A stretch of 64,000 bases of DNA from Candidatus Moraniibacteriota bacterium (GTDB taxonomy: Bacteria; Patescibacteriota; Minisyncoccia; Moranbacterales; GCA-2747515), in NCBI GenBank assembly GCA_942490825.1, contig CALNYG010000004.1, positions 116,888 to 180,887 of the forward strand, in the 5' to 3' direction. The notes below the pieces were generated by a model. That model searched no databases. It saw only the letters and a list, made by a program, of their open reading frames with translations, and was not told the origin of the DNA. Positions 1,197 to 64,000 of the stretch are shown here, piece by piece (the first letter of the stretch is position 1; each line of letters begins with the position of its first letter). Made by a program: the position numbers and the translations under genes.

Positions 1197-1474
1197 ATGT
1201 CATTTCGACTAGGACATAGCGGAACGGAGAAATCTCAAAACTTTGTATTTTTCTAAAACTTTAAGATTTATTAATTTTATACTGCTCCAATCAAAATGAT
1301 ATTGAAGATTTTCCTAAAAAATATAATTTTCTTATTATTTTGAACGAAGTAAAATTTTTGTTAAAAAATTTAATATAATGAAGAATCTACTAAAGATAAT
1401 ACCCGACTTTTAAATTACTAAATTATCAGAAAAACTTACTGATATTATTCACTCCGCTACGTTCAGAATGACAG
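1197..1474. repeat. composite or decayed hairpin-repeat block in the nrdA-nrdB spacer
   Basis: The left end ATGTCATTTCGACTAGGACATAGCGGAACGGAGAAATCTCAAAAC (1197-1241) is about 87% identical to the reverse complement of 9125-9168. The right end CGCTACGTTCAGAATGACAG (to 1474) is the reverse complement of the CTGTCATTCTGAACG module seen at 40686 and 51127. Internal remnants are ATTTTGAACGAAGTAAAAT (1337-1355) and AATGAAGAATC (1378-1388). Confidence 0.75.
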
Positions 1475-5096: not shown

Positions 5097-5128
5097 AAAA
5101 GACTTTCACAAAAATGCAAAAGTCTTTT
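5097..5128 (-). terminator. rho-independent terminator-like hairpin downstream of the surface-protein gene
   Basis: AAAAGACTTT / AAAGTCTTTT stem with flanking A/T runs, 20 nt beyond the stop at 5148. Confidence 0.55.
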
Positions 5129-5147
5129 AAAAGTTAGCTATAAGAAT

Positions 5148-7875: not shown

Positions 7876-8952
<1,077 letters not shown>

Positions 8953-9041: not shown

Positions 9042-9168
9042 ATGTCATTTCTACCGGAATATTTTTAAACGTAGTTTTAAAATATACAGTGGAGAAATCT
9101 CAAAGCTTTAGTTTCAACTTAGAGTTTTGAGATTTCTCCATTCCGCTACGCTCCAGTCGAAATGACAT
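9042..9168. repeat. 127-bp hairpin element with perfect 10-bp terminal inverted repeats
   Basis: Termini are ATGTCATTTC (9042-9051) and GAAATGACAT (9159-9168). There is an internal 14-bp stem GGAGAAATCTCAAA / TTTGAGATTTCTCC (9091-9139). The right half matches 1197-1241 in reverse complement. Confidence 0.85.
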
Positions 9169-10433: not shown

Positions 10434-12146
10434 CTATTCACTAAAAACTATCTTTTCAATAAATTTTCTAGCATCTTCTAATTCTGAATCACTAGCCAAA
10501 TCTTTTGTTTCTAAAACTTCATTTACCCACTTTGGACCATGATTACCGATACTTTTTACAAAACGTTCTAATTCACCAAGTTCAACAATAAATAATCCAC
10601 TTTTTTCAAATATTTCTTGTAACTCATTAAATTTACTAGTTGGATCACCTGACGGAACAGAGCACTTGCCGTCATCTTTAGCAATTTGCCATGGTGATTT
10701 TACCTTAATGATTTTTCTTATCTCTTTGGCGTCTTTAACAGAAATTATATCATTTGATATTCCATCAATATAATCTTTAATATTTTTTTCTAAACAATCT
10801 TTTCTTAAATTATCTACTGACTTTGAATCTATACTATTTTTAATCAACTTCCAATTACTTTCAACACTAGACCATTCTATCTCCAATGACTCAACAATCC
10901 CCTTTAATGGATTTTGATTATTCAAAACATCAAAATCAACGATCACTGAAACTGGCACTCCTATCTTTTTTAAAGCATTAACTACCGTACTTACCCTATC
11001 TTTACCTCCACAATGAACAAATAATAGATCTGTAGTATAATCATCCCTCTCCTCACAAATAGAATCTAATATCGCTGAATAAAACTTACAATCAGAATCA
11101 CTTTCACAAACGATTACTTTTTTATGAAATAAACCACTTAAAATATTTGAATACTTTAAAATAGGATCTTCCCATACATCTTTAACACCTTCATTATCTA
11201 ATTCACAAATATTATTTACATTTCCTTCTCTATTAATTCTAATTATTTTAACATTAGAATCCTTCTCATCTAACAAACCCTTTAAAAAATCCTCACTGTG
11301 AGTTGAAATAAAAACTTGTTTATCCTTTGTTAAACTTTGAGAAAGCATTTTACCTAGTAATTTTGCTTGAGGTGGATGTAAAAAAGCTTCTGGCTCATCT
11401 ATTAAAAATACAGATTTATAAGAAATTATCATATTAAGTAAAATTCCTACAAAACTTTTCATACCGTCTCCTTGTTCATGTAAAAAAGGCAATTTATCCA
11501 ATTTTTCATTATATTCATTTGAAATTCTATCATTTTCTTTAGTATATTCAATTTTTTCTCCAACATGTAACGGTATCTGATTTCCAGCTCTATAATTTAA
11601 AATAAGACACTCACCAAAAGATTTTTTAAAATAATCATTAATTTCATCTTGCAAATTCTCATCTTTATATAAAAAGTGTATCGGATGTTGCGGTTGTTCT
11701 TTAAAACCAATACTATTAGTTGGACCAACCATACCAAGACGATTTTGAGTATCAATAAAAGAAATAAAAATATTACTTAGCTCTCTTATTCCTTCCGCAT
11801 AACCGTTATAGTAACTTCTTATATTATTTTCATGTAAACTAAACTGATAACCTTCATATGTCTTAAAAGAATCTGCTCCGTATTTTTCTTCTGAAAATGA
11901 TTTTAAAAAATTAATAAAATTGTCATCGTTTCCTCTTTTGGAAATATTAATATTTTTAACTACTATTCCTGCATTTTCTGTGCTCGGATTATTTATAATT
12001 TTTTCTCTGATATTTTTTAAAACAACACTTTTACCTGAATTATTAGGACCAACAAAAACTACAGTACTATTCTCTTCAAGTATTATTTCATTACCATCAT
12101 TAAAAACTATTTTATCAACAAAAAAACTAAATTCATTATTTGACAT
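10434..12146 (-). CDS. OLD-family-like ATPase with a C-terminal Toprim/DUF4435-like nuclease domain
   Basis: Walker A FVGPNNSGKS, signature-like QGDGMKSF, Walker B VFLIDEPEAFLHP and H-loop ISTHSEDF. The C-terminal part has VIVCESDSDCKFY (Toprim Glu), HCGGKD and VIVDFDVL (DxD). Confidence 0.65.
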   Translation of the reverse strand: MSNNEFSFFVDKIVFNDGNEIILEENSTVVFVGPNNSGKSVVLKNIREKIINNPSTENAGIVVKNINISKRGNDDNFINFLKSFSEEKYGADSFKTYEGYQFSLHENNIRSYYNGYAEGIRELSNIFISFIDTQNRLGMVGPTNSIGFKEQPQHPIHFLYKDENLQDEINDYFKKSFGECLILNYRAGNQIPLHVGEKIEYTKENDRISNEYNEKLDKLPFLHEQGDGMKSFVGILLNMIISYKSVFLIDEPEAFLHPPQAKLLGKMLSQSLTKDKQVFISTHSEDFLKGLLDEKDSNVKIIRINREGNVNNICELDNEGVKDVWEDPILKYSNILSGLFHKKVIVCESDSDCKFYSAILDSICEERDDYTTDLLFVHCGGKDRVSTVVNALKKIGVPVSVIVDFDVLNNQNPLKGIVESLEIEWSSVESNWKLIKNSIDSKSVDNLRKDCLEKNIKDYIDGISNDIISVKDAKEIRKIIKVKSPWQIAKDDGKCSVPSGDPTSKFNELQEIFEKSGLFIVELGELERFVKSIGNHGPKWVNEVLETKDLASDSELEDARKFIEKIVFSE

Positions 12147-13439: not shown

Positions 13440-14093
13440 TCAAATACAAGGCATTTTTTCAATAAAATCTTTATAATCTTTTAGATCATAATCAAACTGC
13501 TCTAAAATAACATCTTTATCACACAACATTCCATTTCTTTTTCCAAGATAATCTAAAAGACTAGAATATTTCCAATTTTTATTTTTGCCTCCATGAATGA
13601 AATGATTTTGATTTACATAAGCAGATAGATACAAAAGATATTCATTTGAATCAATGTGAATTGACTTGAATTTTCCTTGAAAAAGTGAGCCTGAACGTTT
13701 GTGTTTTTTGTTAAAATACATCGTGTAAGAAGTTCCTAATTTCTGCATAAATCTTTCTACACCCTTATCTGCGTTTTGTTTCAAAATAAAATGATAATGA
13801 TTTGGATTTAAACAATATGCAACAAATTCAACAAGTTTATTCCTACTCTTAAGTTGTTCTTTGAAATTATTTTCAAACACTCCAAGGTTCGACCTTCGGG
13901 GATCCGAAGGTCGAACCTTTTCACGTTGATAATCTCTATAAAGTTGCATCAATCCATTGTTTTCATCATTCAACAAATTCATATTCAAGATAAATCTTTT
14001 GTAATCATCTTCATCCATAAAAACGTCCCTTTTATCAACACCTCGATTATATATATGATAGAATTCTCCATTTACAAATTCTGTTTTTCTCAT
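13440..14093 (-). CDS. REP-associated tyrosine transposase-like protein (RAYT / IS200-like Y1 HUH family)
   Basis: FYHIYNRG, the HUH motif in AYCLNPNHYHFIL, YTMYFNKKHKRSGSLFQGKFKS, catalytic-Tyr region YLLYLSAYVNQN, and WKYSS. I prefer the ATG at 14093; the ORF-track start at 14117 is a TTG. The stop codon is TGA. Confidence 0.85.
   Translation of the reverse strand: MRKTEFVNGEFYHIYNRGVDKRDVFMDEDDYKRFILNMNLLNDENNGLMQLYRDYQREKVRPSDPRRSNLGVFENNFKEQLKSRNKLVEFVAYCLNPNHYHFILKQNADKGVERFMQKLGTSYTMYFNKKHKRSGSLFQGKFKSIHIDSNEYLLYLSAYVNQNHFIHGGKNKNWKYSSLLDYLGKRNGMLCDKDVILEQFDYDLKDYKDFIEKMPCI
13884..13919. repeat. perfect 36-nt palindrome (16-bp arms, 4-nt loop) inside the RAYT-like ORF
   Basis: AAGGTTCGACCTTCGG-GGAT-CCGAAGGTCGAACCTT. 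It is a GC-rich island in an AT-rich gene and is translated in frame as KVRPSDPRRSNL. Confidence 0.95.
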
Positions 14094-14108
14094 AAAAAAA
14101 TTTAAATC

Positions 14109-14144
14109 AAAACTCAATCTTCAAAAACCCAAAGATTGAGTTTT
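14109..14144 (-). terminator. terminator-like hairpin after leuS
   Basis: AAAACTCAATCTT / AAGATTGAGTTTT 12-13 bp stem between the leuS stop (14160) and the RAYT ATG (14093). Confidence 0.5.
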
Positions 14145-17126: not shown

Positions 17127-17151
17127 AAAGTGCTCGCCGCACGGGCTTTTT
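17127..17151 (+). repeat. GC-box repeat copy 1 (AAAGTGCTCGCCGCACGGGCTTTTT)
   Basis: Exact consensus copy, about 90 nt upstream of the leuS start. Confidence 0.9.
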
Positions 17152-25066: not shown

Positions 25067-25088
25067 GTGCTCGCCGCATGGGCTTTTT
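25067..25088 (+). repeat. GC-box repeat copy 2
   Basis: GTGCTCGCCGCATGGGCTTTTT, with one C>T change that keeps a G.T pair. Confidence 0.9.
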
Positions 25089-28867: not shown

Positions 28868-28888
28868 GTGCTCGCCGCACGGGCTTTT
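28868..28888 (+). repeat. GC-box repeat copy 3
   Basis: GTGCTCGCCGCACGGGCTTTT. Confidence 0.9.
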
Positions 28889-28903: not shown

Positions 28904-28982
28904 ATGTCATGCTGGAAGATATAATTTGTCCTCGACATTAAAAATATACGGGGTTACAAATTAATCTATTCAGTGTCTACAC
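28904..28982. repeat. degenerate copy of the ATGTCATT hairpin module
   Basis: ATGTCATGCTGGAAGATATAATTTGT...ACAAATTAATCTATTCAGTGTCTACAC aligns to the module at 33077-33164, but the CCGG arms are mutated. Confidence 0.6.
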
Positions 28983-29178: not shown

Positions 29179-29931
29179 TTATAAACCTTCAGTCACCTCT
29201 CGATACTTACAAAAATCACAATCATCATCGCCCTCAGGAATTTCATCACTCATCAAGCAATCTTTAATATCAACTAAAGTTTTTTCAATCCATTCATCAT
29301 TTCCCTTATACGGAATCAAATCAACATCAAACTCTAATTTACTATCAAACGCCCGTAAATCAGTCCTACCATTACAATAAACGAAATAACCAACATCATC
29401 AACTCGAAAATCATTTTTTCTCAACAACCACTGATAAATTTCCATCTGTCTCTTATACACAATCTGCCAAGGTGAATGAATATCAACTTGTCCGTCTTTT
29501 GATGTAGCTTTGTAATCAACCACAATTAATTCTTCTGTTTTTTGATTGATCCACACATCATCTACTGCACCAGAAATAATTAAATTTGTCGGCTCATGAT
29601 GAAATGTTATTCCTTTGAAATTTTCTCTCCACTCATCTATTTTACCACACTGAAACGGCACAATACTTTCTAAACCATAATTTTCCATCAAAGGATGACT
29701 TTCGTTTTCTGCCCGATGAATATCAAATTCTTTTTTCAATAAAGTATCAACTGCTAAATTTAGATTAAATGGAAAACTGGGTGGCTGTGCAATTCCTAAT
29801 CGCCTGTCTAAATAAAAGCATTTTGGACATTTTAAAAAGTTCTCAATTTTTGATCGAGAAAGCTTAAATGGTTTTTCGCTTTTCGGATTGAATATGTTCC
29901 GAGTTCTTTTTGGATTATATTTTTTGAACAT
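29179..29931 (-). CDS. PD-(D/E)XK nuclease, Cas4/RecB-like, with putative Fe-S Cys ligands
   Basis: N-terminal CPKC, VVDYKATSK (D..K), QMEIYQWLL (QxxxY) and C-terminal CDFCKY. Confidence 0.65.
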   Translation of the reverse strand: MFKKYNPKRTRNIFNPKSEKPFKLSRSKIENFLKCPKCFYLDRRLGIAQPPSFPFNLNLAVDTLLKKEFDIHRAENESHPLMENYGLESIVPFQCGKIDEWRENFKGITFHHEPTNLIISGAVDDVWINQKTEELIVVDYKATSKDGQVDIHSPWQIVYKRQMEIYQWLLRKNDFRVDDVGYFVYCNGRTDLRAFDSKLEFDVDLIPYKGNDEWIEKTLVDIKDCLMSDEIPEGDDDCDFCKYREVTEGL

Positions 29932-33076: not shown

Positions 33077-33164
33077 ATGTCATTCCGGAAAATATATTTT
33101 CTTTTGTAGAAACGTCGATTTATCGCGTTTTATAGATAGAAAATAATTTATCCGGAATCTACAC
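33077..33164. repeat. ATGTCATT hairpin module (single)
   Basis: ATGTCATTCCGGAAAATATATTTTCT-[loop]-AGAAAATAATTTATCCGGAATCTACAC. Confidence 0.85.
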
Positions 33165-33205: not shown

Positions 33206-33226
33206 AAAGTGCTCGCCGCACAGGCT
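33206..33226 (+). repeat. GC-box repeat copy 4
   Basis: AAAGTGCTCGCCGCACAGGCT. It carries a G>A change in the stem and lies 25 nt beyond the stop of the GT4 gene at 33251. Confidence 0.85.
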
Positions 33227-35234: not shown

Positions 35235-35405
35235 ATGTCATTCCGGAAAATATATTTTCTTTTCGAACGAAGTGAGAAATTAGAAAATAATTTATCCGGA
35301 ATCTATACCTAAAATTTTTTATATCTTAAAGTGTAGATTCCGGATAAACTAATTTGTATTCAATCGCTATCGCTCTTGAACAAATTATGTCTTCCGGAAT
35401 GACAT
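35235..35405. repeat. 171-bp double-hairpin element with ATGTCATT / AATGACAT termini
   Basis: Left hairpin at 35235-35307 (ATTCCGGAAAATATATTTTCT...AGAAAATAATTTATCCGGAAT). Right hairpin at 35331-35405 (ATTCCGGATAAACTAATTTGT...ACAAATTATGTCTTCCGGAAT). The outer termini are inverted repeats. Confidence 0.9.
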
Positions 35406-36863: not shown

Positions 36864-36939
36864 AAAAAACTTTAACAAAATTATTTTTCCTATCTCTAAA
36901 ATACTAAAAATATATACCCCTCTAAATTTCACAGGCCAT

Positions 36940-37279
36940 CAAAAGATAATCTATAAGCTGGATTCTGTCGAGAATAGTGATTTACCTTGTTTATATGTTG
37001 CCATATAAATCCTCGCGACTCACCCCACACCCACAATTTAAATATAAATTATGGGTGTGGGGTACGGTCTTGCACTTAAGTAAGGATTTAGCCGTTTCAC
37101 CTTCCATGTTTCCACAGAAGCTTATCCCGAAGGATAGATCAGAGCTTTCGCGCCAATCCGTCTCTGCTCGCACCTCATGGGTCACCCCAGACGGGAGTTA
37201 CCCGCTACCTCGCTGTCTTCGTAAAAAAAAGACAAGTGTCCAGACTTTCCTCTCCGTAGAGCCACTATTTAATCATCTT
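36940..37279 (-). ncRNA. rnpB: RNase P RNA, bacterial type A
   Basis: The minus strand carries GGAGAGGAAAGTCTGGACAC (CR-I), GGAAGGTGAAACGGC and GACAGAATCCAGCTTAT (CR-V). P1 pairs AGAUGAUU with GAUUAUCU. The region is a local GC-rich island, and the ends are approximate. Confidence 0.85.
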
Positions 37280-37536
37280 TTAATGGACAATATTATTTAG
37301 AGTATTATTTTTAACTGTGGTTATTATACAATAAATTTAACGAAAAATAAAGGAAAAGTTGATTGACTTTTTAATCTCTCTATTGAGTTGAATACAATAT
37401 TTTAAAAGTTCAGATTTAATTTTAAAATTGAAAAAAAATATAAATCATTTAATTTATAAAAAATTTTCTATAAAATTTCTAGTCTACCAACTCTTTATTC
37501 TTATTAATGTTGCTGAAAAGCTGGTATTTAAAAAGT

Positions 37537-38816: not shown

Positions 38817-40592
38817 ATGTTTGAAAAAATTAAAAATGAGCCGACTATTTTTCTTTTCAGAAAGATGTGGAAATTTTCTGAAGGCAATCGCAAGAAGGTT
38901 GTTTTGTTTATGGTTTTATTTTTATTTTCAAATTTAGTAGGATTAATAGAACCAATAATTTTAGCAAAATTATTAAATGAAATTCAAAATAATGGAATCG
39001 ATGCAGAAAATATAAAATTTTTAATTTTACTTTCAACATCCTTTATTTGGTTAAGTCTAGCTTTTTGGATTTTTCAAAGCAATGGTCGTATTTTAGAAAG
39101 AACCAATTCATTTATTGTAAGAAAAAAATATAAAGAATATTTATTAAAAAAAGTTTTAGATTTTAATTTAAATTGGCATAGTAACATGGATAGTGGAGAT
39201 ACTATTGATAAAATAAATAAATCTACAACTGGACTTTTTAATTTTTCAGGTACCACTTTTCGTGTTTTGTATATAATCGTTCAAATAATTGGAGTCACTA
39301 TTGCTTTAACATATTTTGATTTAAGAATTGGAATATTCAGTTTATTTAGCACAATTTTTGCATTTTTTATATTATATCAATTTGATAAGCGACTTGTGCC
39401 TCAATATAAAAAACTAAATAAATATGAAAATAAAATTGAAGCAAAAATATTTGATTCAATTTCCAATATAACCAGTGTAATAATTTTGAATATAAAAAAA
39501 AGTGTTTTGAATAATATTTCTAAAAAAATAAATAACCCTTTTATTTTATATAAAAAAAATGTGGTATTAAATGAAAGGAAGTGGTTTACAGCAGACATTT
39601 TATTCAATTTATTGATAGTAATCTTACCATTAACTTTTTACATTTTTAATATTTACAAATATTCTTTAGCAGTTGAAATTGGAACAATTGCTGCTTTAAA
39701 TGCGTATTTAAATAAAATGAGAAATGTATTTTTTAATTTTAGTGGAACTTATGAAGAATTAATCCAAAGAAAAGCCTCTATCCAAAATGCAGACTCAATC
39801 GAAGAAAATTTTAAAAAAAATGAGCAAATTATCAAAAAACCAATTGAAAATTGGAATGAAATTCAAATTACCAATCTAAATTTTTCTTATCAAGAAACTC
39901 AAGGAGAAATCCATTTAAATAATGTAAACATAAATATAAGTTCAGGAGAAAGAATCGCCTTAATCGGAGAATCAGGCTCAGGAAAAACAACATTCCTCAA
40001 AGTGCTCCATGGACTTTACGATAACGCTCAAGCAAAAATATCAGTCGACAACAATCAAAAATCAGAAACAAATTTTGATGATTTAGATCTAAAAACAATG
40101 TTAGTTCCCCAAGAACCAGAACTATTCTCTTCAAGCGTCCGTGAGAATATAACATTCGGATTAGAATACACTCAAGAAGAAATTGAAAAAATGACTAAAT
40201 TAGCCGAATTCAGCGACGTCATAGAAAAACTACCCCAAAAATATGATTCTGTAATAAATGAAAAAGGTGTCAATCTATCAGGCGGACAAAAACAAAGACT
40301 CGCCTTAGCTCGTGCTTTAATATTTGCTCAAGAAAAAAATATAATTCTCTTGGATGAATCCACATCATCAGTCGATCCAGAAACAGAAGTAAAAATTTAC
40401 AAAAATATTTTTAGACATTTTAAAAATAAAACTGTCATTGCTTCTATTCACAAAATTAATTTATTAAAATATTTTGATCGAATCATAATGTTTCAAGATG
40501 GTAAAATTGTTGACTCTGGGACTTTCAACGAATTATTAGAGACAAATGAAAAGTTTAAATCTGACTGGGAAGAATATATCAAGAAAGCATAA
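38817..40592 (+). CDS. ABC transporter, fused permease/ATPase (type I exporter)
   Basis: 6-TM N-terminal half, GESGSGKTT, LSGGQKQRLALARAL and ILLDESTSS. Confidence 0.88.
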   Translation: MFEKIKNEPTIFLFRKMWKFSEGNRKKVVLFMVLFLFSNLVGLIEPIILAKLLNEIQNNGIDAENIKFLILLSTSFIWLSLAFWIFQSNGRILERTNSFIVRKKYKEYLLKKVLDFNLNWHSNMDSGDTIDKINKSTTGLFNFSGTTFRVLYIIVQIIGVTIALTYFDLRIGIFSLFSTIFAFFILYQFDKRLVPQYKKLNKYENKIEAKIFDSISNITSVIILNIKKSVLNNISKKINNPFILYKKNVVLNERKWFTADILFNLLIVILPLTFYIFNIYKYSLAVEIGTIAALNAYLNKMRNVFFNFSGTYEELIQRKASIQNADSIEENFKKNEQIIKKPIENWNEIQITNLNFSYQETQGEIHLNNVNINISSGERIALIGESGSGKTTFLKVLHGLYDNAQAKISVDNNQKSETNFDDLDLKTMLVPQEPELFSSSVRENITFGLEYTQEEIEKMTKLAEFSDVIEKLPQKYDSVINEKGVNLSGGQKQRLALARALIFAQEKNIILLDESTSSVDPETEVKIYKNIFRHFKNKTVIASIHKINLLKYFDRIIMFQDGKIVDSGTFNELLETNEKFKSDWEEYIKKA

Positions 40593-40617
40593 TTTATTTT
40601 CTCAATTCAAAGTAAAT

Positions 40618-40780
40618 AAAGTGCTCGCCGCACGGGCTTTTCTGAACAAGGGGTCATGACCCCTTGTTCAGATTCTAAAAATTTTCTGTCATTCTGAACG
40701 GATTTATTTTTTTCAGAAAAAATATAGTAGTGAAGTCTGCCTATCGGCAGATAGGAATCCCCCACAGAGAATCACAAAAC
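40618..40780 (+). repeat. composite repeat with GC-box copy 5, a 32-nt perfect palindrome, a GTCATTCTGAACG hairpin module and a nested 20-nt mini-palindrome
   Basis: GC-box at 40618-40641. The palindrome TCTGAACAAGGGGTCA|TGACCCCTTGTTCAGA is at 40641-40672. CTGTCATTCTGAACG...GTGAAG[TCTGCCTATCGGCAGATAGG]AATCCCCC has the bracketed insert at 40736-40755. The whole block is colinear with 51077-51201. Confidence 0.9.
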
Positions 40781-40812
40781 AATATTTTTAAAAAACTGAA
40801 AATACTAAAATC

Positions 40813-40841
40813 AAAAAAGCCGACCAAAAGGTCGGCTTTTT
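40813..40841. terminator. bidirectional rho-independent terminator
   Basis: AAAAAAGCCGACC-AAAA-GGTCGGCTTTTT between the convergent ABC and KH genes. Confidence 0.75.
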
Positions 40842-40862
40842 ATCTTTGAAAAATATCAAATA

Positions 40863-41195
40863 CTAGATTTGAATATCATCAACTACTTCACTAAGAGTTT
40901 TCTTCTCACCATCTCTATTTTCTCGACGAGCTGGTCTTTCAGATCCCTCTGGTTCATCAATCTTCAAGTTAACACGAGCGTTGTTTCGAGCACCTACTAC
41001 ACGTAGTAATGTTCGCAAAGCCTTAGCTGTGCTTCCCTCACGACCAATAACCATTCCCATATCAGCTGCGTTTACACCAAGAGTTATCAAAACACCCATT
41101 TCATCAACTGTACGATCAACTTTCACATCGTCAGGATTATCCACTAGCATTTTTACTACCTCTTCGATAAACTTTGCATCTTGTTCTTGTTCCAT
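40863..41195 (-). CDS. KH-domain RNA-binding protein (KhpA/YlqC-like) with a C-terminal extension
   Basis: MVIGREGSTAKALRTLLRVVG (GxxG KH core); 110 aa. Confidence 0.8.
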   Translation of the reverse strand: MEQEQDAKFIEEVVKMLVDNPDDVKVDRTVDEMGVLITLGVNAADMGMVIGREGSTAKALRTLLRVVGARNNARVNLKIDEPEGSERPARRENRDGEKKTLSEVVDDIQI

Positions 41196-42074: not shown

Positions 42075-42226
42075 AAATGTTTAGTTAAAAAATAAAGATA
42101 AAACTCACCTTCTAAATAATAACATGAATTGATGTAGATTTGTAGATAACTAAATATTTAAATTTACAAAATTTTTATCGCGGTTTTTTTAATATAAAAA
42201 TGTAGCAACACTATATCTCTCAAAAC

Positions 42227-42565
42227 TTAACTTTCCAATAATTTATTTACATCAACCCAATTCCCACTTTCTTTAATAAGCTTAATCAATTCATCAATTA
42301 TCTCTTCTTCAGGAACATTCCTTTTGACCAATTCACTTCAATAATAAAGACTAACCTTTCTTGAAAAGTCTCCAGCATAACCATAATCAGATCCAACCAT
42401 TTTGCCAGGACCATTCATAATACATCCAATCACCGCAATTTTTAAGCCTTTCAATTGACTCATTTTAGCCTTTATTTTTTTAGCTACTAATTCAAAAAAT
42501 ATCAAATAAAGCTCTTCTGCAATAAGAACATAAAATAAACGCTGTCTTTGTGATTTTTCACTGAA
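42227..42565 (-). pseudogene. ispG: remnant of ispG (HMBPP synthase), C-terminal about 110 codons only, with an in-frame TGA
   Basis: The minus-strand translation is ...LKIAVIGCIMNGPGKMVGSDYGYAG...SLYY*SELVKRNVPEEEIIDELIKLIKE. This matches the conserved IspG C-terminus (AVMGCxVNGPGE...LFxKGExVxKVPEEE). The TGA is at 42348-42350 and the upstream frame closes with TAG at ~42566. No N-terminal TIM-barrel part is present. Confidence 0.65.
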
Positions 42566-42725
42566 CTACTTTAAAATTATATAACGTAATAGTTCTCTAC
42601 TTACAGTCAGGATTTTTATAAATTTTATAAGTTAATGCACTAAAATCTAAAAGTAACCAAATGGAATTAAATTTAACTTTTGCTTAAATTTTTCTTAAAA
42701 TAACTTAATTTTAACTAAAATCCAC

Positions 42726-42753
42726 TTGCCCATTTCTCAAAAAACCTTATAAT
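42726..42753 (+). promoter_or_regulatory. sigma-70-like promoter candidate for the sugar dehydrogenase gene
   Basis: TTGCCC-N16-TATAAT, about 50 nt upstream of the ATG at 42803. Confidence 0.4.
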
Positions 42754-42802
42754 TAAATTGTTCATGATTTTACAATCTTAAATTAATAATTTAAAAAATA
42801 AT

Positions 42803-49962: not shown

Positions 49963-51048
49963 TTAACCCTCCAACTTCCTCAACTCCTCAATCAATCTTT
50001 TCTCTTTTCCAGAAAGCTTAGTCGGAACATCAACAATCACTTTAACCAAATGATCACCTCGCCCAAAACCACGCAACTTCGGCACACCTTTAGAACGAAT
50101 ACGATAAGTTTCACCCGATTGAGTCCCAGCTGGAACTTTCATTTTTACAGAGCCCTCAACAGTTTCCACATCAATCTTATCTCCCAAAGCCGCCTGAGCA
50201 AAACTCACATGAACTGTACTACTAATATCATCACCATTCCGTTCAAAACGATCATCCCGAACAACAGAAATAGTCACCAACAAATCGCCTGCAGGAGCAC
50301 CATTCTCACCAGCTTCACCCTTACCGCTCATCGCCAATGTTTGACCAGCATTAATCCCAGCTGGAACTTCCACTTTTTCAATAATTTCTTCTTTATGCCG
50401 ACCATCACCGCCACACTGACTACATTTTTTATCAAAACTTCTACCTTTACCTTTACAATCATTACAAACAACATTCTGTGCAAAATTCCCCAACATAGTT
50501 CGCATCATTTTCTGAATTTTTCCACTTCCCTTGCAAGTCTTACAGGTCTCTTCTTTACTTCCAGGTTCACCACCATTACCACCACATTTTTTACAACTAA
50601 TCGATTTATATAATTTAATTTCTTTTTGAACACCTGAAATCATCTCTGCAAAAGTAATCTCCATTTCAACTTGAATATCTCGTCCTCGAGATTGTCCTCC
50701 GCCACGTCCACCACCAAAAATATCCGAAAAAATATCACCAAATCCCTCGCCACCACCAAAATTAAATTCAAAACCACCATCTTGACCTCTAAATTGATTA
50801 GGATCAAAACCACCACTTTGTTGACCACCGCCAGCACCATTGAAAGTTTGTCCAAACTGATCATACTGAGACTTCTTCTGCTTGTCTGACAAAACCTGGT
50901 AAGCCGAATTAATTTCTTTAAATTTAGCTTCATCACCACCCTTTTTATCCGGGTGATACTTATGAGCCAATTTTCGATAAGCTTTCTTAATTTCATCTTC
51001 AGAAGCGCCTTTATCAACTCCTAAAATTTTATAATAATCTTCTGCCAT
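49963..51048 (-). CDS. dnaJ: molecular chaperone DnaJ
   Basis: J domain (DYYKILGV...KYHPDK), G/F-rich linker and four CxxCxGxG zinc-finger repeats. Confidence 0.95.
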
Positions 51049-51076
51049 TTTGTTTATTTTAAAGTTTAAAAAATAT

Positions 51077-51201
51077 AAAGTGCTCGCCGCACGGGCTTTT
51101 TAGATTTTATTTTTTCTAAAAGTTTTCTGTCATTCTGAACGCATTTATTTTTTATTTAAAAAATAAAGGAGTGAAGAATCCCCCAAAGAAAATCATAAAA
51201 C
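51077..51201 (+). repeat. composite repeat with GC-box copy 6 and a GTCATTCTGAACG hairpin module
   Basis: AAAGTGCTCGCCGCACGGGCTTTTT ... CTGTCATTCTGAACG ... GAGTGAAGAATCCCCCAAAGAAAATCATAAAAC. It is colinear with 40618-40780 but lacks both palindromic inserts. It sits between CIRCE and the dnaJ start. Confidence 0.9.
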
Positions 51202-51253
51202 CGTTAATTTTAACTCTTAAAGTTTAATACCAATTTATCATAAAATAAAAAAA

Positions 51254-51280
51254 TTAGCAATCACTTGACTTGAGTGCTAA
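51254..51280. promoter_or_regulatory. CIRCE element (HrcA operator)
   Basis: TTAGCAATC-N9-GAGTGCTAA versus the consensus TTAGCACTC-N9-GAGTGCTAA, about 206 nt upstream of the dnaJ ATG. Confidence 0.8.
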
Positions 51281-51351
51281 TTTTAATTTAAAAGACTATT
51301 TAAAAAATCCTATATTCTACTACTCTCAGTATTATAAAATACCAATCAAAA

Positions 51352-54148: not shown

Positions 54149-54651
54149 ATAAAAAGATTAGAAAATAATGATGATGCAAATATAGACAATAAAACCAGTA
54201 TAATTCCTGAAATAACTGAGCCAATTGCTAAAAGTGGAATCGCCTTTTTGAAAGGAATATCGAAAATACTAGCCGCCACTGCTCCAGTTACAATCCCTGT
54301 AAATGGCAACGGAATTGCCACAAAAGCTATCAAAGCGAAAGCTCCCCACTTTTCAAATTTATCAATATTTTTTGTTTGAATTCGGTGAATATATTTTTTC
54401 CAAATTTTATTTAACCATTCAATTTTCTTTAGGAAAAAATCGAATATATTATCTACAAAAACAAACGTTAAAATCCCCACTAAAACATTACCTAAAATTG
54501 AGTAGATAAAGGCTGCAAATGGATTCATTTCATATCCTATGATTGCTACAGGAATTGAAGCTCTTATTTCTGTAATTGGTATCATTGCGAGTAGGAATGT
54601 TGCCCACTCATGCGACAAATTTGAAACTGATTCTATAATTATTTCTTTCAT
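54145..54651 (-). CDS. small multidrug-export-like membrane protein (COG2426/Sm_multidrug_ex family)
   Basis: LAMIPITEIRASIPVAI pattern with 4-5 helices. It overlaps tpiA by 4 nt. Confidence 0.45.
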   Translation of the reverse strand: MKEIIIESVSNLSHEWATFLLAMIPITEIRASIPVAIIGYEMNPFAAFIYSILGNVLVGILTFVFVDNIFDFFLKKIEWLNKIWKKYIHRIQTKNIDKFEKWGAFALIAFVAIPLPFTGIVTGAVAASIFDIPFKKAIPLLAIGSVISGIILVLLSIFASSLFSNLFI

Positions 54652-54667
54652 TTATTTATTTAAAAAA

Positions 54668-55102
54668 TTAAAATCCAAAATCACTATAAAAGCTATCTTT
54701 ACGTATATTTTCAAGAGCCTGTTTAATAAAAGGAATTGTATTTTCTGGCAAGTCATCCAAATCAAACCAACTAACATCATCACACTTATTAGACTCTGCA
54801 ACTTTCGGTTCGCCTTTCCATTTTTTTGCCATAAAAAATACATCGATTCTATTACCATTTTGTTGTCTATGTAAAACATGTACTGCATCAAGACTATCTG
54901 AACATAAATCAATATCAACCTCTTCTTTAGCTTCCCTAATCATTGCATCTTTGTACGCCTCACCATCATCAACATGACCGCCGACCAAACTATAATTTCC
55001 ATCTTCATAACCAGTATTGTATCTTCGCAATAAAAGAATTTTATTATCTTTAACTAAGACAAGATAAATTCCTGGAGTTATTTTTAATCTCTCTTTAGAC
55101 AT
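54668..55102 (-). CDS. Nudix hydrolase (paralog A1)
   Basis: Canonical Nudix box GGHVDDGEAYKDAMIREAKEEVDI. About 85% aa identity to the ORF at 61372-61806. Confidence 0.88.
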   Translation of the reverse strand: MSKERLKITPGIYLVLVKDNKILLLRRYNTGYEDGNYSLVGGHVDDGEAYKDAMIREAKEEVDIDLCSDSLDAVHVLHRQQNGNRIDVFFMAKKWKGEPKVAESNKCDDVSWFDLDDLPENTIPFIKQALENIRKDSFYSDFGF

Positions 55103-57374: not shown

Positions 57375-57593
57375 ATATCATTCCGGAAAATATATTTTCT
57401 CCTTCAGAGCGTAGCGATGAAATAGAAAATAATTTATCCGGAATCTAGAAAACTTTAAGATTATAAATAAACTTTAATTTTTTATTTTTCTCTTGTAATT
57501 TCTAAATACCGGATAGACGAACCTGTCTGCCGAACAGGCAGGTTTAAATCAATCGCTACGCTCTTGAATAAATTCTGTCTTCCGGCATGACAT
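57375..57593. repeat. 219-bp double-hairpin element with ATATCATT / CATGACAT termini and a nested mini-palindrome
   Basis: Same architecture as 35235-35405. The right hairpin additionally contains ACCTGTCTGCCGAACAGGCAGGT (57521-57543), which is absent from the 35331-35405 copy. Confidence 0.9.
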
Positions 57594-60885: not shown

Positions 60886-61335
60886 TTAATTCCAACCAAA
60901 TTCACTGTAAAAATTATCATTCTTAATATTTTCAAGAACCTGAAGAACCTCTGGAGCAATATTTTCTGGTAAACTATTCAAGTCAAACCATGATAAATCA
61001 TCACATTTCTCTGGTTCCATGTTTTTAATCTCACCATCCCATTTTTCACTCACAAAAAATGCACTGACTCTTTCATTATTCTGAGTGATCCCAAAATCTC
61101 CATGTATCACATGAGCTACTTTTAAATTTTTTGATTCTAAATCAACTCCTATCTCTTCCTTTGCTTCCCTAATTACACATCGAGTAAAACTTTCTCCGAC
61201 TTTAACGTGTCCAGAAGGTAATGAATATTTGCCATTACAATACTTTTTATTATAACGTCTCGACATTAATACTTTCTTATCTTTTAATAAAATCAGATAT
61301 GACGCTGGAATTATTTTATGTCTTTCTTTTTTCAT
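60886..61335 (-). CDS. Nudix hydrolase (paralog B)
   Basis: Nudix box SGHVKVGESFTRCVIREAKEEIGV. About 50% identity to paralogs A1 and A2. Confidence 0.85.
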   Translation of the reverse strand: MKKERHKIIPASYLILLKDKKVLMSRRYNKKYCNGKYSLPSGHVKVGESFTRCVIREAKEEIGVDLESKNLKVAHVIHGDFGITQNNERVSAFFVSEKWDGEIKNMEPEKCDDLSWFDLNSLPENIAPEVLQVLENIKNDNFYSEFGWN

Positions 61336-61371
61336 ATTTTTTAAATTTAATTATTTTTATAAGTTCAAAAC

Positions 61372-61806
61372 TTAAAATCCAAAATCACTATAAAAAACTT
61401 CTTTCTTTATATTTTTAAGAGCTTGTTTTATAAAAGGAATTGTATTATCAGGTAAATTATCCATATCAAACCAACTAACATCATCACATTTTTCAGATTC
61501 TGCAACTCTAGGCTCACCAGTCCAATCATTTGCCATAAAAAATACATCGATTCTATTACCACTTTGTTGCCTATGCAATACATGCACAGCATTTAAATCT
61601 GCTGAATTTATTTCTATATCAGCTTCCTCTTTAGCTTCTCTAATCATCGCATCCTTATAAGCTTCACCATCATCAACATGTCCACCTACTAAACTATAAT
61701 TACCATCTTCGTATCCAGTATTATATCTTCTAAGTAAGAGAATTTTATTATCTTTTATTAAAACAAGATAAATTCCCGGAATAATTTTTAATCTTTCTTT
61801 AGACAT
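61372..61806 (-). CDS. Nudix hydrolase (paralog A2)
   Basis: GGHVDDGEAYKDAMIREAKEEADI. About 85% aa identity to 54668-55102. Confidence 0.88.
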   Translation of the reverse strand: MSKERLKIIPGIYLVLIKDNKILLLRRYNTGYEDGNYSLVGGHVDDGEAYKDAMIREAKEEADIEINSADLNAVHVLHRQQSGNRIDVFFMANDWTGEPRVAESEKCDDVSWFDMDNLPDNTIPFIKQALKNIKKEVFYSDFGF

Positions 61807-63696: not shown

Positions 63697-63737
63697 GTGC
63701 CTGTCTGCCGATAGGCAGGCTCGCCGCACGAGTTTTT
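63697..63737 (+). repeat. GC-box repeat copy 7, interrupted by a 20-nt mini-palindrome
   Basis: GTGC[CTGTCTGCCGATAGGCAGGC]TCGCCGCACGAGTTTTT, with the bracketed insert at 63701-63720. Confidence 0.9.
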
Positions 63738-63850: not shown

Positions 63851-64000
63851 ATGTCATTCCGGAAGTTATAATTTTTTCAAGAGCGTAGCGATTGAATAAA
63901 AATTAATCTATCCGGAATCTCAACAAGCTTTCCTGACACTTAAAGAGATTCTGGAAAATAATTTTTCCGTTCTGCTACAAAATTATTTTCTGGAATAACA
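63851..64000. repeat. double-hairpin ATGTCATT element, right end cut by the window edge
   Basis: Left hairpin at 63851-63922 (ATGTCATTCCGGAAGTTATAATTTTT...AAAAATTAATCTATCCGGAAT). Right hairpin at 63946-64000 (ATTCTGGAAAATAATTTT...AAAATTATTTTCTGGAAT). Confidence 0.85.

What the first reader, a model, noticed from the sequence alone, without database searches (positions are those of the whole stretch)
40618..40780. Two colinear composite elements (40618-40780 and 51077-51201) that differ by discrete palindromic blocks
Both begin with the GC-box and continue through CTAAAA-TTTTCTGTCATTCTGAACG. An AT-rich loop follows, then GTGAAG...AATCCCCCA(C/A)AGA(G/A)AATCA(C/T)AAAAC.

The 40-kb copy carries two extra blocks. 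One is a 32-nt perfect palindrome, TCTGAACAAGGGGTCA|TGACCCCTTGTTCAGA at 40641-40672. At the same position the 51-kb copy has only a 7-bp AT hairpin (TTTTAGA...TCTAAAA). The other extra block is the 20-nt mini-palindrome at 40736-40755.

The module GTC-ATTCT-GAACG...GTGA-AGAAT-C is itself a hairpin. Its short form (CTGTCATTCTGAACGTAGCGGAGTGAA) occurs in reverse complement at 1448-1474.

The shared order of sub-modules suggests a roughly 125-nt unit that is copied as a whole and then decorated. That pattern fits a MITE-like element or a structured small RNA gene family.
Basis: seen in the sequence. Interest (0 to 1): 0.55.

Follow-up and report, generated by a model that had tools for sequence, protein, structure and literature searches.

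The report
Mosaic palindromic repeat arrays, REP/BIME-like
The two look-alike stretches are real, but they are best read as DNA-level mosaics of small hairpin-forming repeats in a tiny Moranbacteria (CPR) genome that also encodes a REP-type transposase-like enzyme, not as a small-RNA gene family.

Summary
40618-40780 and 51077-51201 are colinear, and the 40-kb copy carries two extra blocks, a 32-nt perfect palindrome and a 20-nt mini-palindrome.

They are not a private pair. Each is a polar array of reusable blocks: a 17-nt GC-box, then a spacer palindrome, then a GTCAT...ATC hairpin module, then a C-rich tail. All seven GC-boxes in the window lie on the + strand, and about 14 hairpin modules lie in its intergenic gaps.

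In related Moranbacteria the GC-box stays at both orthologous sites, while the module and both blocks come and go. The 20-nt mini-palindrome is one discrete unit, found inside three different host repeats.

Stems covary, but G·T and A·C mismatches are equally common. The array is antisense to dnaJ and sense to the ABC and prfA genes. Both points argue against a strand-specific RNA.

A Y1 HUH transposase-like gene lies at 13440-14117; its best structural match is the E. coli REP-associated transposase.

GTCAT-footed hairpins with covarying stems also occur in 80 unrelated viral-collection stretches. They match no Rfam family, and sequence searches of the paper library found nothing.

Verdict: a REP/BIME-like mosaic repeat system, a new variant of a known kind. 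Mobilisation by the Y1 enzyme is inferred, not shown. The GC-box function is unresolved.

The parts
40621..40637 (+). GC-box GTGCTCGCCGCACGGGC (followed by TTTT), 28 nt after the stop of the + strand ABC-transporter gene
   Evidence: Exact match. Retained at the orthologous site in L128, L129 and L130. Flagged as terminator-like on the + strand only.
40641..40672 (.). HP1: 32-nt perfect palindrome TCTGAACAAGGGGTCA|TGACCCCTTGTTCAGA. It is a regular spacer block that follows GC-boxes.
   Evidence: Unique in the window. HP1-like palindromes follow 3 of 4 GC-boxes in L122 and one in L129. Absent from the orthologous L128 copy.
40673..40687 (+). Linker TTCTAAAAATTTTCT, shared with the 51-kb copy
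   Evidence: Alignments.
40688..40759 (+). Hairpin module, AT-hairpin subtype. GTCATTCTGAACG, then AT hairpin, then GTGAAG[insert]AATC. The outer stem is ATTCT/AGAAT with a tandem G·A, and the inner AT stem is 8-10 bp.
   Evidence: Covariance-model hit 40673-40786 scores 82.8 bits.
40736..40755 (-). 20-nt mini-palindrome, unit CCTRTCTGCC-GAWA-GGCAGR read on the minus strand, inserted into the 3' arm of the module
   Evidence: The empty site GCGAAGAATCC is seen in L128. The same unit lies at 63700-63719 and 57522-57542.
40760..40780 (+). C-rich tail CCCCACAGAGAATCACAAAAC
   Evidence: Conserved among paralogues and orthologues.
40813..40842 (.). Context: bidirectional intrinsic terminator shared by the convergent ABC and KhpA genes. 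The array therefore lies inside the ABC 3' UTR.
   Evidence: Conserved in L128-L130.
51080..51096 (+). GC-box, 31 nt upstream of the dnaJ start codon (dnaJ is on the minus strand)
   Evidence: Same position, 30-35 nt from the ATG, in L122, L125, L126 and L127.
51097..51121 (.). Type-B spacer with a 7-bp AT hairpin, TTTTAGA..TCTAAAA. It occupies the HP1 position.
   Evidence: The L122 orthologue carries a degenerate HP1 here instead.
51129..51180 (+). Hairpin module (AT-hairpin subtype), uninterrupted
   Evidence: Covariance-model hit 51114-51207 scores 103 bits. As DNA it folds at -9.3 kcal/mol on this strand and -6.7 on the complement.
51181..51201 (+). C-rich tail CCCCAAAGAAAATCATAAAAC
51254..51280 (.). 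Context: CIRCE-like inverted repeat TTAGCAATC-N9-GAGTGCTAA. On the dnaJ-sense strand it is followed by an extended -10-like TGGTATTAA. If that promoter is used, the reverse complement of the array forms the dnaJ 5' UTR.
   Evidence: Read. Conserved in L122, L125, L126 and L127. The identification as CIRCE rests on the known consensus, not on a test.
1319..1413 (+). Third, degenerate copy of the AT-hairpin module with tail
   Evidence: Covariance-model hit, 35.2 bits, E = 2.7e-07.
1448..1474 (-). Short form of the module, CTGTCATTCTGAACGTAGCGGAGTGAA
9044..9166 (.). Inverted pair (REPIN-like) of short modules GTCATTTCGAC..GAGCGTAGCGG..GGAGAAATC, at 9044-9099 (+) and 9131-9166 (-)
35237..35403 (.). 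Inverted pair of CCGGAA-stem modules (GTCATTCCGGAA..ATCCGGAATC), at 35237-35303 (+) and 35336-35403 (-). Further copies of this subtype lie at 33079-33159, 57377-57445, 57520-57591 (-) and 63853-63919, with a degenerate one at 28906-28975.
63697..63732 (+). GC-box variant GTG[CCTGTCTGCCGATAGGCAGG]CTCGCCGCACGAG, interrupted by the 20-nt mini-palindrome at 63700-63719
57522..57542 (+). Mini-palindrome CCTGTCTGCCGAACAGGCAGG inside the arm of a CCGGAA-stem module
17130..17146 (+). GC-box upstream of leuS. Other GC-boxes lie at 25067-25083 (uvrA), 28868-28884 (Lnb_N-domain gene) and 33209-33225.
13440..14117 (-). Y1 HUH transposase-like gene (RAYT-like), single copy in the window, lying between leuS and mreB. 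It is the candidate enzyme for the hairpin repeats.
   Evidence: PF01797 at 35.4 bits against a cut-off of 23. Motifs NPNHYHFIL and YLSAYVNQNH. Best NCBIfam hit REP_Tyr_transpos at 28 bits, below its cut-off of 80. The AF2 model (pLDDT 86) best matches PDB 4ER8, the E. coli REP-associated transposase.

Best explanation
The two loci are arrays of a modular family of intergenic palindromic DNA repeats in a Candidatus Moranbacteria genome (30% G+C). They are comparable to the REP/REPIN/BIME mosaics of enterobacteria.

Each array is polar. It starts with a fixed 17-nt GC-box at the gene-proximal end. Next comes a spacer palindrome (HP1, or a decayed AT version of it). Next come one or more hairpin modules with conserved feet (GTCAT...ATC) and freely covarying stems. 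Last comes a C-rich tail.

Shown here:
- The blocks recur in many combinations.
- They gain and lose members between close relatives, while the GC-box stays in place.
- A 20-nt GC-rich mini-palindrome is an independent unit that has landed inside three different host blocks.
- Array orientation follows the chromosome strand, not the direction of the neighbouring genes.

Inferred:
- The units behave as single-stranded DNA hairpins exposed during replication.
- They are cut and rejoined, or copied, by the Y1 HUH (RAYT-like) enzyme encoded at 13440-14117. That would account for the nesting, the orientation bias and the conserved non-pairing feet.
- Because the arrays lie in UTRs, they are transcribed as passengers and may secondarily affect mRNA ends.
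For: Modularity and copy number:
- GC-box 7 of 7 on the + strand.
- About 14 modules, all intergenic.
- Covariance-model hits in the window and in six related loci.
- Arrays of three tandem modules in L129.

Turnover at orthologous sites:
- The ABC-KhpA gap carries GC-box, HP1, module and mini-palindrome in the window.
- In L128 it carries the GC-box and module only.
- In L129, L130 and L131 it carries the GC-box and a different small palindrome only.
- The dnaJ gap has the type-B spacer in the window and L125, but an HP1-like palindrome in L122.
- L127 has a module upstream of prfA where the window has only a stump.

Hairpin constraint without strand bias:
- 7 of 12 inner-stem pairs show double changes, and 92% of cells are paired.
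- The outer stem covaries between paralogues: ATTCT/AGAAT, ATTCC/GGAAT, ATTTC/GAAAT and ATTGC/GCAAT.
- G·T and A·C mismatches number 11 and 16.

Orientation:
- The same chromosome strand is used whether the flanking gene is sense (ABC, prfA) or antisense (dnaJ).
- GC skew is negative throughout the window.

Enzyme:
- The Y1 HUH protein best matches the E. coli RAYT-REP complex 4ER8 in fold, E = 5.9e-05.
- It has at least 4959 homologues; all of the listed hits that carry a source name are Patescibacteria, some named RayT by their source.
- It is syntenic with leuS in L135 as well.
- Its L132 homologue is flanked on both sides by a 16-bp-stem palindrome, which also occurs once more about 3 kb downstream.

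Wider family:
- 104 GTCAT-stem-loop-stem-ATC matches in 80 viral-collection stretches (fetched loci) of 28-71% G+C. By my estimate less than one match was expected by chance, and by my reading of the listed sequence types nearly all have complementary stems.
- Mosaic arrays occur in L166.
Against: - The Y1 gene in the window is not flanked by any of the repeats: its gaps are 24 and 42 nt, and one is the leuS terminator.
- None of the repeats has the canonical 5' GT[AG]G foot that defines typical REPs (PMC6006769).
- No Y1 homologue was found in the fetched DNA of the closest relatives that do carry the repeats. Only 5-21 kb per locus was available.
- The best non-self homologue is only 69-70% identical.
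- No target-site duplication or excision footprint was identified.
- Which block is the enzyme's substrate is unknown.
- The GC-box is not a notably stable hairpin (z = -0.2 as DNA). Its 17/17 conservation, against 57-63% identity at dnaJ four-fold sites, looks like protein recognition or a host function that this model does not explain.
- The dnaJ array is retained in all five lineages, so a host function cannot be excluded.
- Palindromes can also arise and be homogenised by template switching and gene conversion, without any transposase.
Confidence: 0.6

Rival explanations
1. A family of structured small RNAs, or one cis-acting RNA motif, transcribed from the + strand. The GC-box hairpin would lie at or near the 5' end, followed by a long hairpin with a conserved tandem G·A, with the single-stranded CCCCC tail acting as an anti-Shine-Dalgarno seed.
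For: - Conserved hairpin with compensatory changes.
- The GTCAT strand folds better than its complement: -9.3 against -6.7 kcal/mol.
- The tandem G·A forms only on this strand.
- The C-rich tail and the linker are conserved in sequence although unpaired.
- The 40-kb copy is followed about 35 nt later by a strong terminator.
- A possible outer helix UUUUCUGU/ACAGAGAA has U·G pairs.
Against: - No G·U excess over A·C in the stems: 11 against 16.
- The outer helix is only 75% paired, with one double change.
- No Rfam family at gathering or relaxed thresholds.
- No consistent promoter upstream of the GC-box.
- The unit is absent from the orthologous ABC site in L129-L131.
- A 20-nt insertion in a stem is tolerated.
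- Copies occur as inverted pairs.
- The dnaJ copy would have to be transcribed against a conserved promoter that faces it.
Confidence: 0.1
2. Host-selected punctuation of transcripts. The blocks would be UTR hairpins that end, insulate or stabilise mRNAs, as known for E. coli REPs. The GC-box would act as a small + strand terminator or as a promoter-proximal protein site, and the dnaJ array as a heat-shock leader.
For: - The GC-box plus TTTT is the only terminator-like hit on the + strand at both loci.
- It lies 19-28 nt after the ABC stop codon in three lineages.
- It lies 26-35 nt upstream of start codons at five or more independent loci.
- It is identical at 17 of 17 positions across lineages whose dnaJ four-fold sites are 57-63% identical.
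- The dnaJ array sits between a conserved CIRCE-like promoter region and the start codon in five lineages.
Against: - The genes next to GC-boxes share no function: leuS, uvrA, an Lnb_N-domain gene, wzz, dnaJ and secDF.
- The genome's real terminators are 7-12 bp stems with A and T tracts, whereas the GC-box stem is 4-5 bp and not stable.
- Upstream of minus-strand genes, the terminator-like orientation faces the wrong way.
- Modules and blocks are dispensable at orthologous sites.
- The 97-100% identity of the dnaJ leader between the window and L125 extends about 230 nt into dnaJ. It is therefore a recombination tract, not evidence of selection.
Confidence: 0.2
3. The palindromes arise in place, with no dedicated enzyme. 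Hairpin blocks would be generated and homogenised by replication template switching, slippage and gene conversion between dispersed copies in AT-rich spacers. The nearby Y1 gene would be unrelated.
For: - HP1 and the type-B spacer replace one another, rather than one being cleanly inserted into the other.
- A recombination tract is visible at dnaJ.
- Perfect palindromes and 'compensatory' changes are what intra-strand templated repair produces.
- There is no target-site duplication.
- The Y1 gene is not flanked by repeats.
Against: - One and the same 20-nt unit lies inside three unrelated hosts, in both orientations.
- The non-pairing feet (GTCAT / ATC) are conserved across genomes of 28-71% G+C.
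- GC-box orientation is uniform: 7 of 7 in the window, and consistent in relatives.
- A Y1 homologue is flanked by palindromes in L132.
Confidence: 0.1

Closest known systems
REP / REPIN / BIME repeats with their RAYT (TnpA-REP) transposase, as in E. coli and Pseudomonas
   Same: - Short imperfect palindromes, multi-copy and strictly intergenic.
- Inverted doublets (9044-9166, 35237-35403, 57377-57591).
- Mosaic arrays of several block types in a fixed order.
- Long persistence at orthologous sites, with gain and loss of units.
- A single-copy Y1 HUH gene in the same genome whose best fold match is the RAYT-REP complex 4ER8.
- A homologue flanked by palindromes in L132.
   Different: - No 5' GT[AG]G foot; the feet are GTCAT...ATC.
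- The Y1 gene here is not flanked by repeats, so there is no REPtron.
- The protein scores below the NCBIfam RAYT cut-off (28 against 80 bits). Its motifs (NHYH, FQG in place of WQ/WE, YVNQNH) fit none of the subclasses tabulated in PMC6006769.
- The host is a roughly 30% G+C CPR bacterium and the hairpins are largely AT-rich.
- Arrays are anchored by a non-palindromic-looking GC-box.
MITEs and other bacterial miniature repeats (Correia/NEMIS, RUP, BOX, Rickettsia palindromic elements)
   Same: - Non-coding units of about 100-150 nt.
- Dispersed, and often located in UTRs.
- Modular (BOX-like), and able to carry promoter-like or terminator-like sequences.
- One pair of short modules lies inside a called ORF in L137, as Rickettsia palindromic elements do.
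   Different: - No terminal inverted repeats bounding the whole 125-nt unit.
- No target-site duplication.
- No parent IS element seen.
GC clusters and double-hairpin elements of AT-rich fungal mitochondrial genomes (comparison from memory, not tested)
   Same: A very small (20-nt) GC-rich palindrome that nests inside AT-rich spacers and inside other repeats, in either orientation.
   Different: - Bacterial chromosome rather than organelle.
- No flanking dinucleotide duplication could be established.
- Only three copies in 64 kb.
IS200/IS605 elements and their palindrome-associated derivatives
   Same: - Y1 HUH enzyme fold.
- Reliance on single-stranded hairpins with conserved feet.
- Expected orientation bias relative to replication.
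   Different: - No left-end and right-end pair bounding a transposable segment.
- No tnpB.
- The Y1 gene is single-copy, and its position next to leuS is shared with L135.

Membership tests
REP (repetitive extragenic palindrome) | Short (20-40 nt) imperfect palindrome present in many copies, confined to intergenic DNA | tested here: met
   The mini-palindrome (20-21 nt, 3 copies), HP1 (32 nt) and the short GTCAT modules (36 nt) are all intergenic. Copy numbers are known only for 64 kb.
REP (repetitive extragenic palindrome) | Conserved 5' GT[AG]G tetranucleotide at the foot of the hairpin (PMC6006769) | tested here: not met
   The feet are GTCAT...ATC, and the GC-box starts with GTGC. GTAG occurs only inside the loop GAGCGTAGCG. 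Atypical REPs without GT[AG]G are described for subclasses 2.6 and 3.
REP (repetitive extragenic palindrome) | Copies flank the cognate RAYT gene (REPtron) | tested here: not met
   The window gene 13440-14117 has gaps of 24 and 42 nt with no repeat. The feature is met for a homologue in L132, whose gene is flanked on both sides by the palindrome AAGGCTCAACCTT...
REPIN | Two REPs in inverted orientation separated by a short spacer, forming a long hairpin | tested here: met
   9044-9099 / 9131-9166, 35237-35303 / 35336-35403, 57377-57445 / 57520-57591 and L122 4538-4731. The two loci of the finding are themselves single-orientation arrays, not doublets.
BIME (bacterial interspersed mosaic element) | Mosaic combination of palindromic units and other short motifs in a conserved order | tested here: met
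   The order GC-box, then HP1 or type-B spacer, then optional small palindrome, then linker, then module(s), then tail is seen at window 40k and 51k, at L122 (3 sites), L125 (2 sites), L128 and L129. This is similarity of architecture only; the motifs are unrelated to those of E. coli.
RAYT / TnpA-REP (Y1 HUH transposase) | HUH motif, catalytic Tyr motif and the Y1 transposase fold | tested here: met
   HYH in NPNHYHFIL and Y in YLSAYVNQNH, both invariant in 30 homologues. PF01797 above its cut-off. Best fold match 4ER8, followed by IS608 and ISDra2 TnpA.
RAYT / TnpA-REP (Y1 HUH transposase) | Passes the curated family model (NCBIfam NF047646) | tested here: not met
   28.1 bits against a cut-off of 80. 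It is a distant, apparently Patescibacteria-typical branch.
RAYT / TnpA-REP (Y1 HUH transposase) | Binds and cleaves its cognate single-stranded REP | not testable with these tools
   Needs biochemistry.
MITE | Terminal inverted repeats and target-site duplication bounding the unit | tested here: not met
   The ends of the unit (GC-box and tail) are not inverted repeats. No duplication appears at the empty or filled sites compared.
Structured small RNA / Rfam family | Match to a curated covariance model | tested here: not met
   Only RNase P passes in the window. Relaxed hits over 40550-40900 are all below gathering scores and, by their coordinates, centre mostly on the terminator at 40813-40842. 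There are none for the GTCAT hairpins in L163, L165, L166 and L189.
Structured small RNA / Rfam family | Strand-specific structure (G·U tolerated, A·C not) and constant orientation relative to transcription | tested here: not met
   11 G·T against 16 A·C. The array is antisense to dnaJ, and sense to ABC and to prfA in L127.
Structured small RNA / Rfam family | Expressed as a discrete transcript | not testable with these tools
   No expression data are available.

The most novel reading that the evidence does not exclude
The GTCAT...ATC hairpins would be a so-far unnamed REP class spread across many bacterial phyla and their phages. They would be processed as single-stranded DNA by a distinct branch of domesticated Y1 HUH enzymes. 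In these CPR genomes they would be assembled at a fixed 17-nt GC-box entry site into polar arrays, growing a little like an integron without genes. The 20-nt GC-rich mini-palindrome would be one of the smallest mobile DNA units known in bacteria.
Probability: 0.2. Interest if true: 0.8.

Novelty: new variant of a known kind. Interest (0 to 1): 0.55.

Why it matters
CPR/Patescibacteria genomes are about 1 Mb and are usually described as streamlined and poor in repeats and mobile DNA. Here a large share of the longer intergenic gaps is built from a small vocabulary of hairpin blocks, next to a domesticated-looking HUH enzyme.

If the link is real, REPIN-RAYT-type within-genome replicators extend to the CPR. 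It would also give a tractable case, with empty and filled orthologous sites, for how such arrays grow.

Practically, these blocks sit in UTRs of core genes (dnaJ, the ABC-transporter gene, prfA, secDF). From my own experience, not tested here, they can be translated into spurious ORFs. They could also be mistaken for small RNAs or riboswitches in scans like this one.

The GTCAT-footed hairpin recurs in contigs of 28-71% G+C with covarying stems and has no Rfam family, so it deserves a proper census.

Tried and rejected
It therefore says nothing about relatives.
2. The one metagenome-contig scan, with GC-box plus TTTT, gave a single unrelated GC-rich contig in which the sequence is part of a longer true terminator.
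3. Exact-protein look-ups of the window's DnaJ and ABC proteins found no record. Relatives were reached through homologues instead.
4. Literature searches by sequence, covering eleven module variants, gave nothing relevant.
5. BLAST of a short module against plasmids gave only two chance-level hits.
6. The idea of an upstream ORF on the dnaJ-sense strand (MIFFGGFFTPLFFK in the 51-kb copy) was rejected. The start codon varies, there is no Shine-Dalgarno sequence, L127 has an in-frame stop, and the 20-nt insertion shifts the frame (read).
7. The GC-box as a regulon operator was rejected because the neighbouring genes share no function.
8. The near-identity of the dnaJ leader between the window and L125 was rejected as evidence of selection. 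The identical tract runs about 230 nt into dnaJ.
9. A sequence-profile search of the PDB with the Y1 alignment found nothing meaningful. Only the fold search worked.
10. A search for Y1 homologues in the 700 kb of viral-collection loci carrying GTCAT hairpins found none. This is uninformative, because the profile is CPR-specific and RAYTs are single-copy.
11. Promoter scans in this AT-rich DNA gave about as many hits as shuffled sequence at one locus (1 against 1.2) and only somewhat more at the other (6 against 2.4 ± 1.6). They were not used as evidence.
Full report

Yes. The two stretches align end to end. They share the GC-box AAAGTGCTCGCCGCACGGGCTTTT, the linker TTCTAAAA(A/G)TTTTCT, GTCATTCTGAACG, an AT-rich hairpin, (A/G)GTGAAG...AATCCCCCA and the tail ..AATCA(C/T)AAAAC. 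The 51-kb copy has two clean gaps. One corresponds to part of the 32-nt perfect palindrome at 40641-40672. The other is exactly the 20 nt at 40736-40755. The short form at 1448-1474 on the minus strand is there too. Chance is excluded: the 17-nt GC-box has 6 matches against 0.00 expected.

**2. The organism**

DnaJ (49963-51048, minus strand) has its closest homologues in Candidatus Moranbacteria / Patescibacteria. The window has 30.5% G+C. Most genes are on the minus strand, and the + strand has negative GC skew throughout.

**3. The pair is part of a larger vocabulary**

Repeat finding and pattern searches show five recurring blocks.

- **GC-box.** There are seven copies, all on the + strand: 17130, 25067, 28868, 33209, 40621, 51080 and an interrupted one at 63697-63732.
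- **HP1.** This is the 32-nt palindrome. In relatives, related palindromes follow GC-boxes directly (three of four GC-boxes in L122, one in L129). HP1 is therefore a regular member of the array, not a one-off decoration. The AT hairpin at the same place in the 51-kb copy (type-B spacer) is the alternative state.
- **Hairpin modules.** They have conserved feet GTCAT...ATC(T). One subtype is the AT-hairpin form of the finding, with copies at 40688, 51129 and, degenerate, 1319-1413. A second has a CCGGAA stem: GTCATTCCGGAA..AGAGCGTAGCGAT..ATCCGGAATC at 33079, 35237, 57377 and 63853, with inverted partners at 35403 and 57591. A third is a short form, GTCATTTCGAC..GAGCGTAGCGG..GGAGAAATC at 1199, 9044 and 9166. 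About 14 modules lie in 64 kb, all in intergenic gaps.
- **Mini-palindrome.** The unit is the 20-21-nt CCTRTCTGCC-GAWA-GGCAGR. It occurs three times, each inside a different host: the 3' arm of the AT-hairpin module (40736-40755, reverse orientation), a GC-box (63700-63719) and a CCGGAA-stem module (57522-57542).
- **Tail.** This is the C-rich sequence that follows the AT-hairpin module.

A covariance model of the roughly 96-nt unit recovers three copies in the window and at least eleven in related loci.

**4. Related genomes**

The DNA scans of the genome and metagenome collections were unproductive. I therefore fetched relatives through DnaJ, ABC-transporter and Y1 homologues.

At dnaJ, all four related lineages (DnaJ 82-95% identical; 85-95%) have the same layout. 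After the ATG come 30-35 nt, then the GC-box (17 of 17 identical), a variable hairpin, the module and the tail. A conserved region follows that carries a CIRCE-like TTAGCAATC-N9-GAGTGCTAA.

The variable hairpin is the type-B spacer in the window and L125. In L122 it is a degenerate HP1, and in L126 and L127 it is other short sequences.

At the ABC-KhpA convergent gap, synteny is kept but the content differs.

- The window has GC-box, HP1, module and mini-palindrome.
- L128 has the GC-box, a type-B spacer and the module, with GCGAAG|AATCC uninterrupted.
- L129, L130 and L131 have the GC-box and an unrelated small palindrome (GGTTTGCCAGTGGCAAACC), with no module.

L127 has a full module between rpmE and prfA. 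At that site the window has only a stump, GTCATTAC...

The GC-box is thus the stable anchor, and modules and blocks turn over.

**5. RNA or DNA?**

The hairpins are under some constraint. In the alignment of 11 copies, 87% of cells pair, against 81% in shuffles. Eight pairs show double changes. The inner AT stem has 7 of 12 covarying pairs and is 92% paired. Between paralogues the two variable positions of the outer stem also covary: CT/AG, CC/GG, TC/GA and GC/GC.

The signal is symmetric, however. Mismatches that would be G·U on the + strand number 11, and those that would be G·U on the minus strand number 16. Orientation relative to transcription is also not constant.

- At dnaJ the array is antisense. 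It lies between a conserved promoter-like region (my reading) and the start codon, so its reverse complement would be the 5' UTR.
- At the ABC gene it is sense and lies upstream of the shared bidirectional terminator at 40813-40842, so it would be the 3' UTR.
- At prfA in L127 it is sense.

What is constant is the chromosome strand. No Rfam family matches. I therefore reject the small-RNA reading as the primary explanation, while noting what speaks for it. The GTCAT strand folds somewhat better than its complement. It also carries a conserved tandem G·A, and the short modules contain GCGTAGC. From established knowledge, GCGNAGC is an unusually stable mini-hairpin motif in single-stranded DNA. 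This was not tested here.

**6. A candidate enzyme**

Annotating the window's ORFs turned up a 225-aa protein at 13440-14117 (minus strand), between leuS and mreB.

- It matches PF01797 (Y1_Tnp) above the cut-off.
- It has an HUH motif (HYH) and a Tyr motif (YVNQNH), both invariant among 30 homologues.
- Its best NCBIfam hit is the REP-associated tyrosine transposase, but below threshold.
- An AlphaFold model (pLDDT 86) has as its best PDB match 4ER8, the E. coli RAYT bound to a REP hairpin. IS608 and ISDra2 TnpA follow.
- The family has at least 4959 members at E ≤ 1e-5 in the protein collection; all of the listed hits that carry a source name are Patescibacteria.
- The gene is next to leuS in L135 as well.
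- In L132 a homologue is flanked on both sides by copies of a 16-bp-stem palindrome that also occurs once more about 3 kb downstream. That is the REPtron arrangement described for RAYTs (PMC6006769).

Against the link:

- In the window the gene has no flanking repeats.
- None of the blocks has the canonical GT[AG]G foot.
- I could not see the gene in the limited DNA held for the nearest relatives.

The enzyme-repeat link is therefore an inference.

**7. A wider family**

The foot-stem-loop-stem-foot pattern GTCATYCYGARCNNGNTYCRGRATC has 104 matches in 80 stretches (fetched loci) of the viral collection, spanning 28-71% G+C. By my estimate fewer than one match was expected by chance. By my reading of the listed sequence types, the two free stem positions are complementary in nearly all of them. 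One contig (L166) shows tandem arrays of several module types, including ATTGC/GCAAT and ATTTC/GAAAT forms like those of the Moranbacteria. A more distant Moranbacterium (L132) has GTCTTTGCGAGG...GCAATCC variants.

I found no Rfam family and no paper by sequence. The searchable literature is incomplete, so this is not proof of novelty.

**8. The GC-box remains unexplained**

- It is identical across lineages whose dnaJ four-fold sites are only 57-63% identical.
- It is always on the same strand and always at the gene-proximal end of an array.
- It lies 26-35 nt upstream of an opposite-strand start codon at five or more independent loci, yet downstream of the same-strand ABC gene in three lineages.
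- It is scored as terminator-like only on the + strand.
- It is not a stable hairpin.

A protein recognition site seems most likely to me, for example an entry or anchor site for the arrays or a promoter-proximal site. This is a guess.

**9. Verdict**

The finding is a real and well-described pair, but it is one instance of a REP/BIME-like mosaic repeat system in a CPR genome. The parts I regard as shown are the following:

- the modular architecture;
- the turnover at orthologous sites;
- the nested 20-nt unit;
- the lack of RNA-type strand bias;
- the presence of a RAYT-like gene;
- the wide occurrence of GTCAT-footed hairpins.

Still inferred are single-stranded-DNA processing by the Y1 enzyme, the identity of its substrate, and any host function in the dnaJ leader or at the ABC 3' end.

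Noticed in passing
window 51254-51280: CIRCE-like inverted repeat TTAGCAATC-N9-GAGTGCTAA about 205 nt upstream of dnaJ. It is conserved in four related lineages and, on the dnaJ-sense strand, followed by an extended -10-like TGGTATTAA. This points to HrcA-type heat-shock control with an unusually long leader made of repeat DNA.
   Followed up: partly
window 13440-14117 (-): Y1 HUH transposase-like gene (RAYT-like) lying between leuS and mreB. It sits next to leuS in L135 as well. Its best non-self homologue is only 69-70% identical, even though close relatives of the genome are in the database.
   Followed up: yes
L132 9936-10000, 10718-10897 and 13460-13634; L135 6682-6859; L137 2389-2433: Y1 homologues in other Patescibacteria have palindromes containing an AAGG(C)..(G)CCTT core next to the gene. 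HP1 of the window (GAACAAGGGGTCA|TGACCCCTTGTTC) has a similar CAAGG..CCTTG core. HP1-type palindromes could therefore be the cognate substrate.
   Followed up: partly
L166 (viral-collection contig, 57% G+C), e.g. 5067-5200 and 8480-8860: Dense same-orientation arrays of different GTCAT...ATC hairpin modules, interleaved with G-rich palindromes such as CTCTCCCTTTAAGGGAGAG. This shows the mosaic style well outside the CPR.
   Followed up: partly
L137 659-723: An inverted pair of short GTCAT hairpins (GTCATTCTGAACTTGATTCAGAATC ... GATCCCGGATCAAGTCCGGGATGAC) lies inside a called 795-aa ORF, reminiscent of in-frame Rickettsia palindromic elements.
   Followed up: no
window 51030-51300 compared with L125: Identity is 97-100% from the CIRCE-like site to about 230 nt into dnaJ, then drops to 83-93%. 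Beyond the CIRCE-like site the two genomes are unrelated. This looks like a recent recombination tract with a breakpoint at the repeat array.
   Followed up: yes
window 36938-37280 (-): Bacterial RNase P RNA class A, 114 bits. It is the only Rfam family passing its threshold in the window. No tRNA genes occur in 64 kb.
   Followed up: no
window 10434-12146 (-): Protein with AAA_21 plus an OLD-like TOPRIM domain (OLD-family nuclease architecture, often defence-related). A PD-(D/E)XK nuclease-domain protein lies at 29179-29931.
   Followed up: no
window 42075-42802: A 728-nt stretch without an ORF of 70 aa or more, between the M50 peptidase gene and the UDP-glucose dehydrogenase gene. It may be a decayed gene, and it contains no recognisable repeat block.
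   Followed up: no
window 54641-54940, 60896-60942 and 61345-61644: Three paralogous genes of about 145 aa (54668-55102, 60886-61335 and 61372-61806) share up to 80% DNA identity over 300 nt (54641-54940 against 61345-61644). This is a local gene family unrelated to the hairpin repeats.
   Followed up: no
many intergenic gaps, e.g. window 7240, 25020, 30460, 46420, 48360, 51228 and 51335: A recurrent ATAATACCA-type motif on the + strand, which reads TGGTATTAT on the minus strand. It looks like the genome's extended -10 promoter. True terminators are A-tract, then a 7-12 bp stem, then a T-tract, and are bidirectional.
   Followed up: partly
window 1260, 17160, 28978, 35325, 57450 and 63738: A short motif (A)ACTT(T)AAGATT recurs just after modules or GC-boxes. 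It is another extra-palindromic block of the mosaic and was not analysed further.
   Followed up: no
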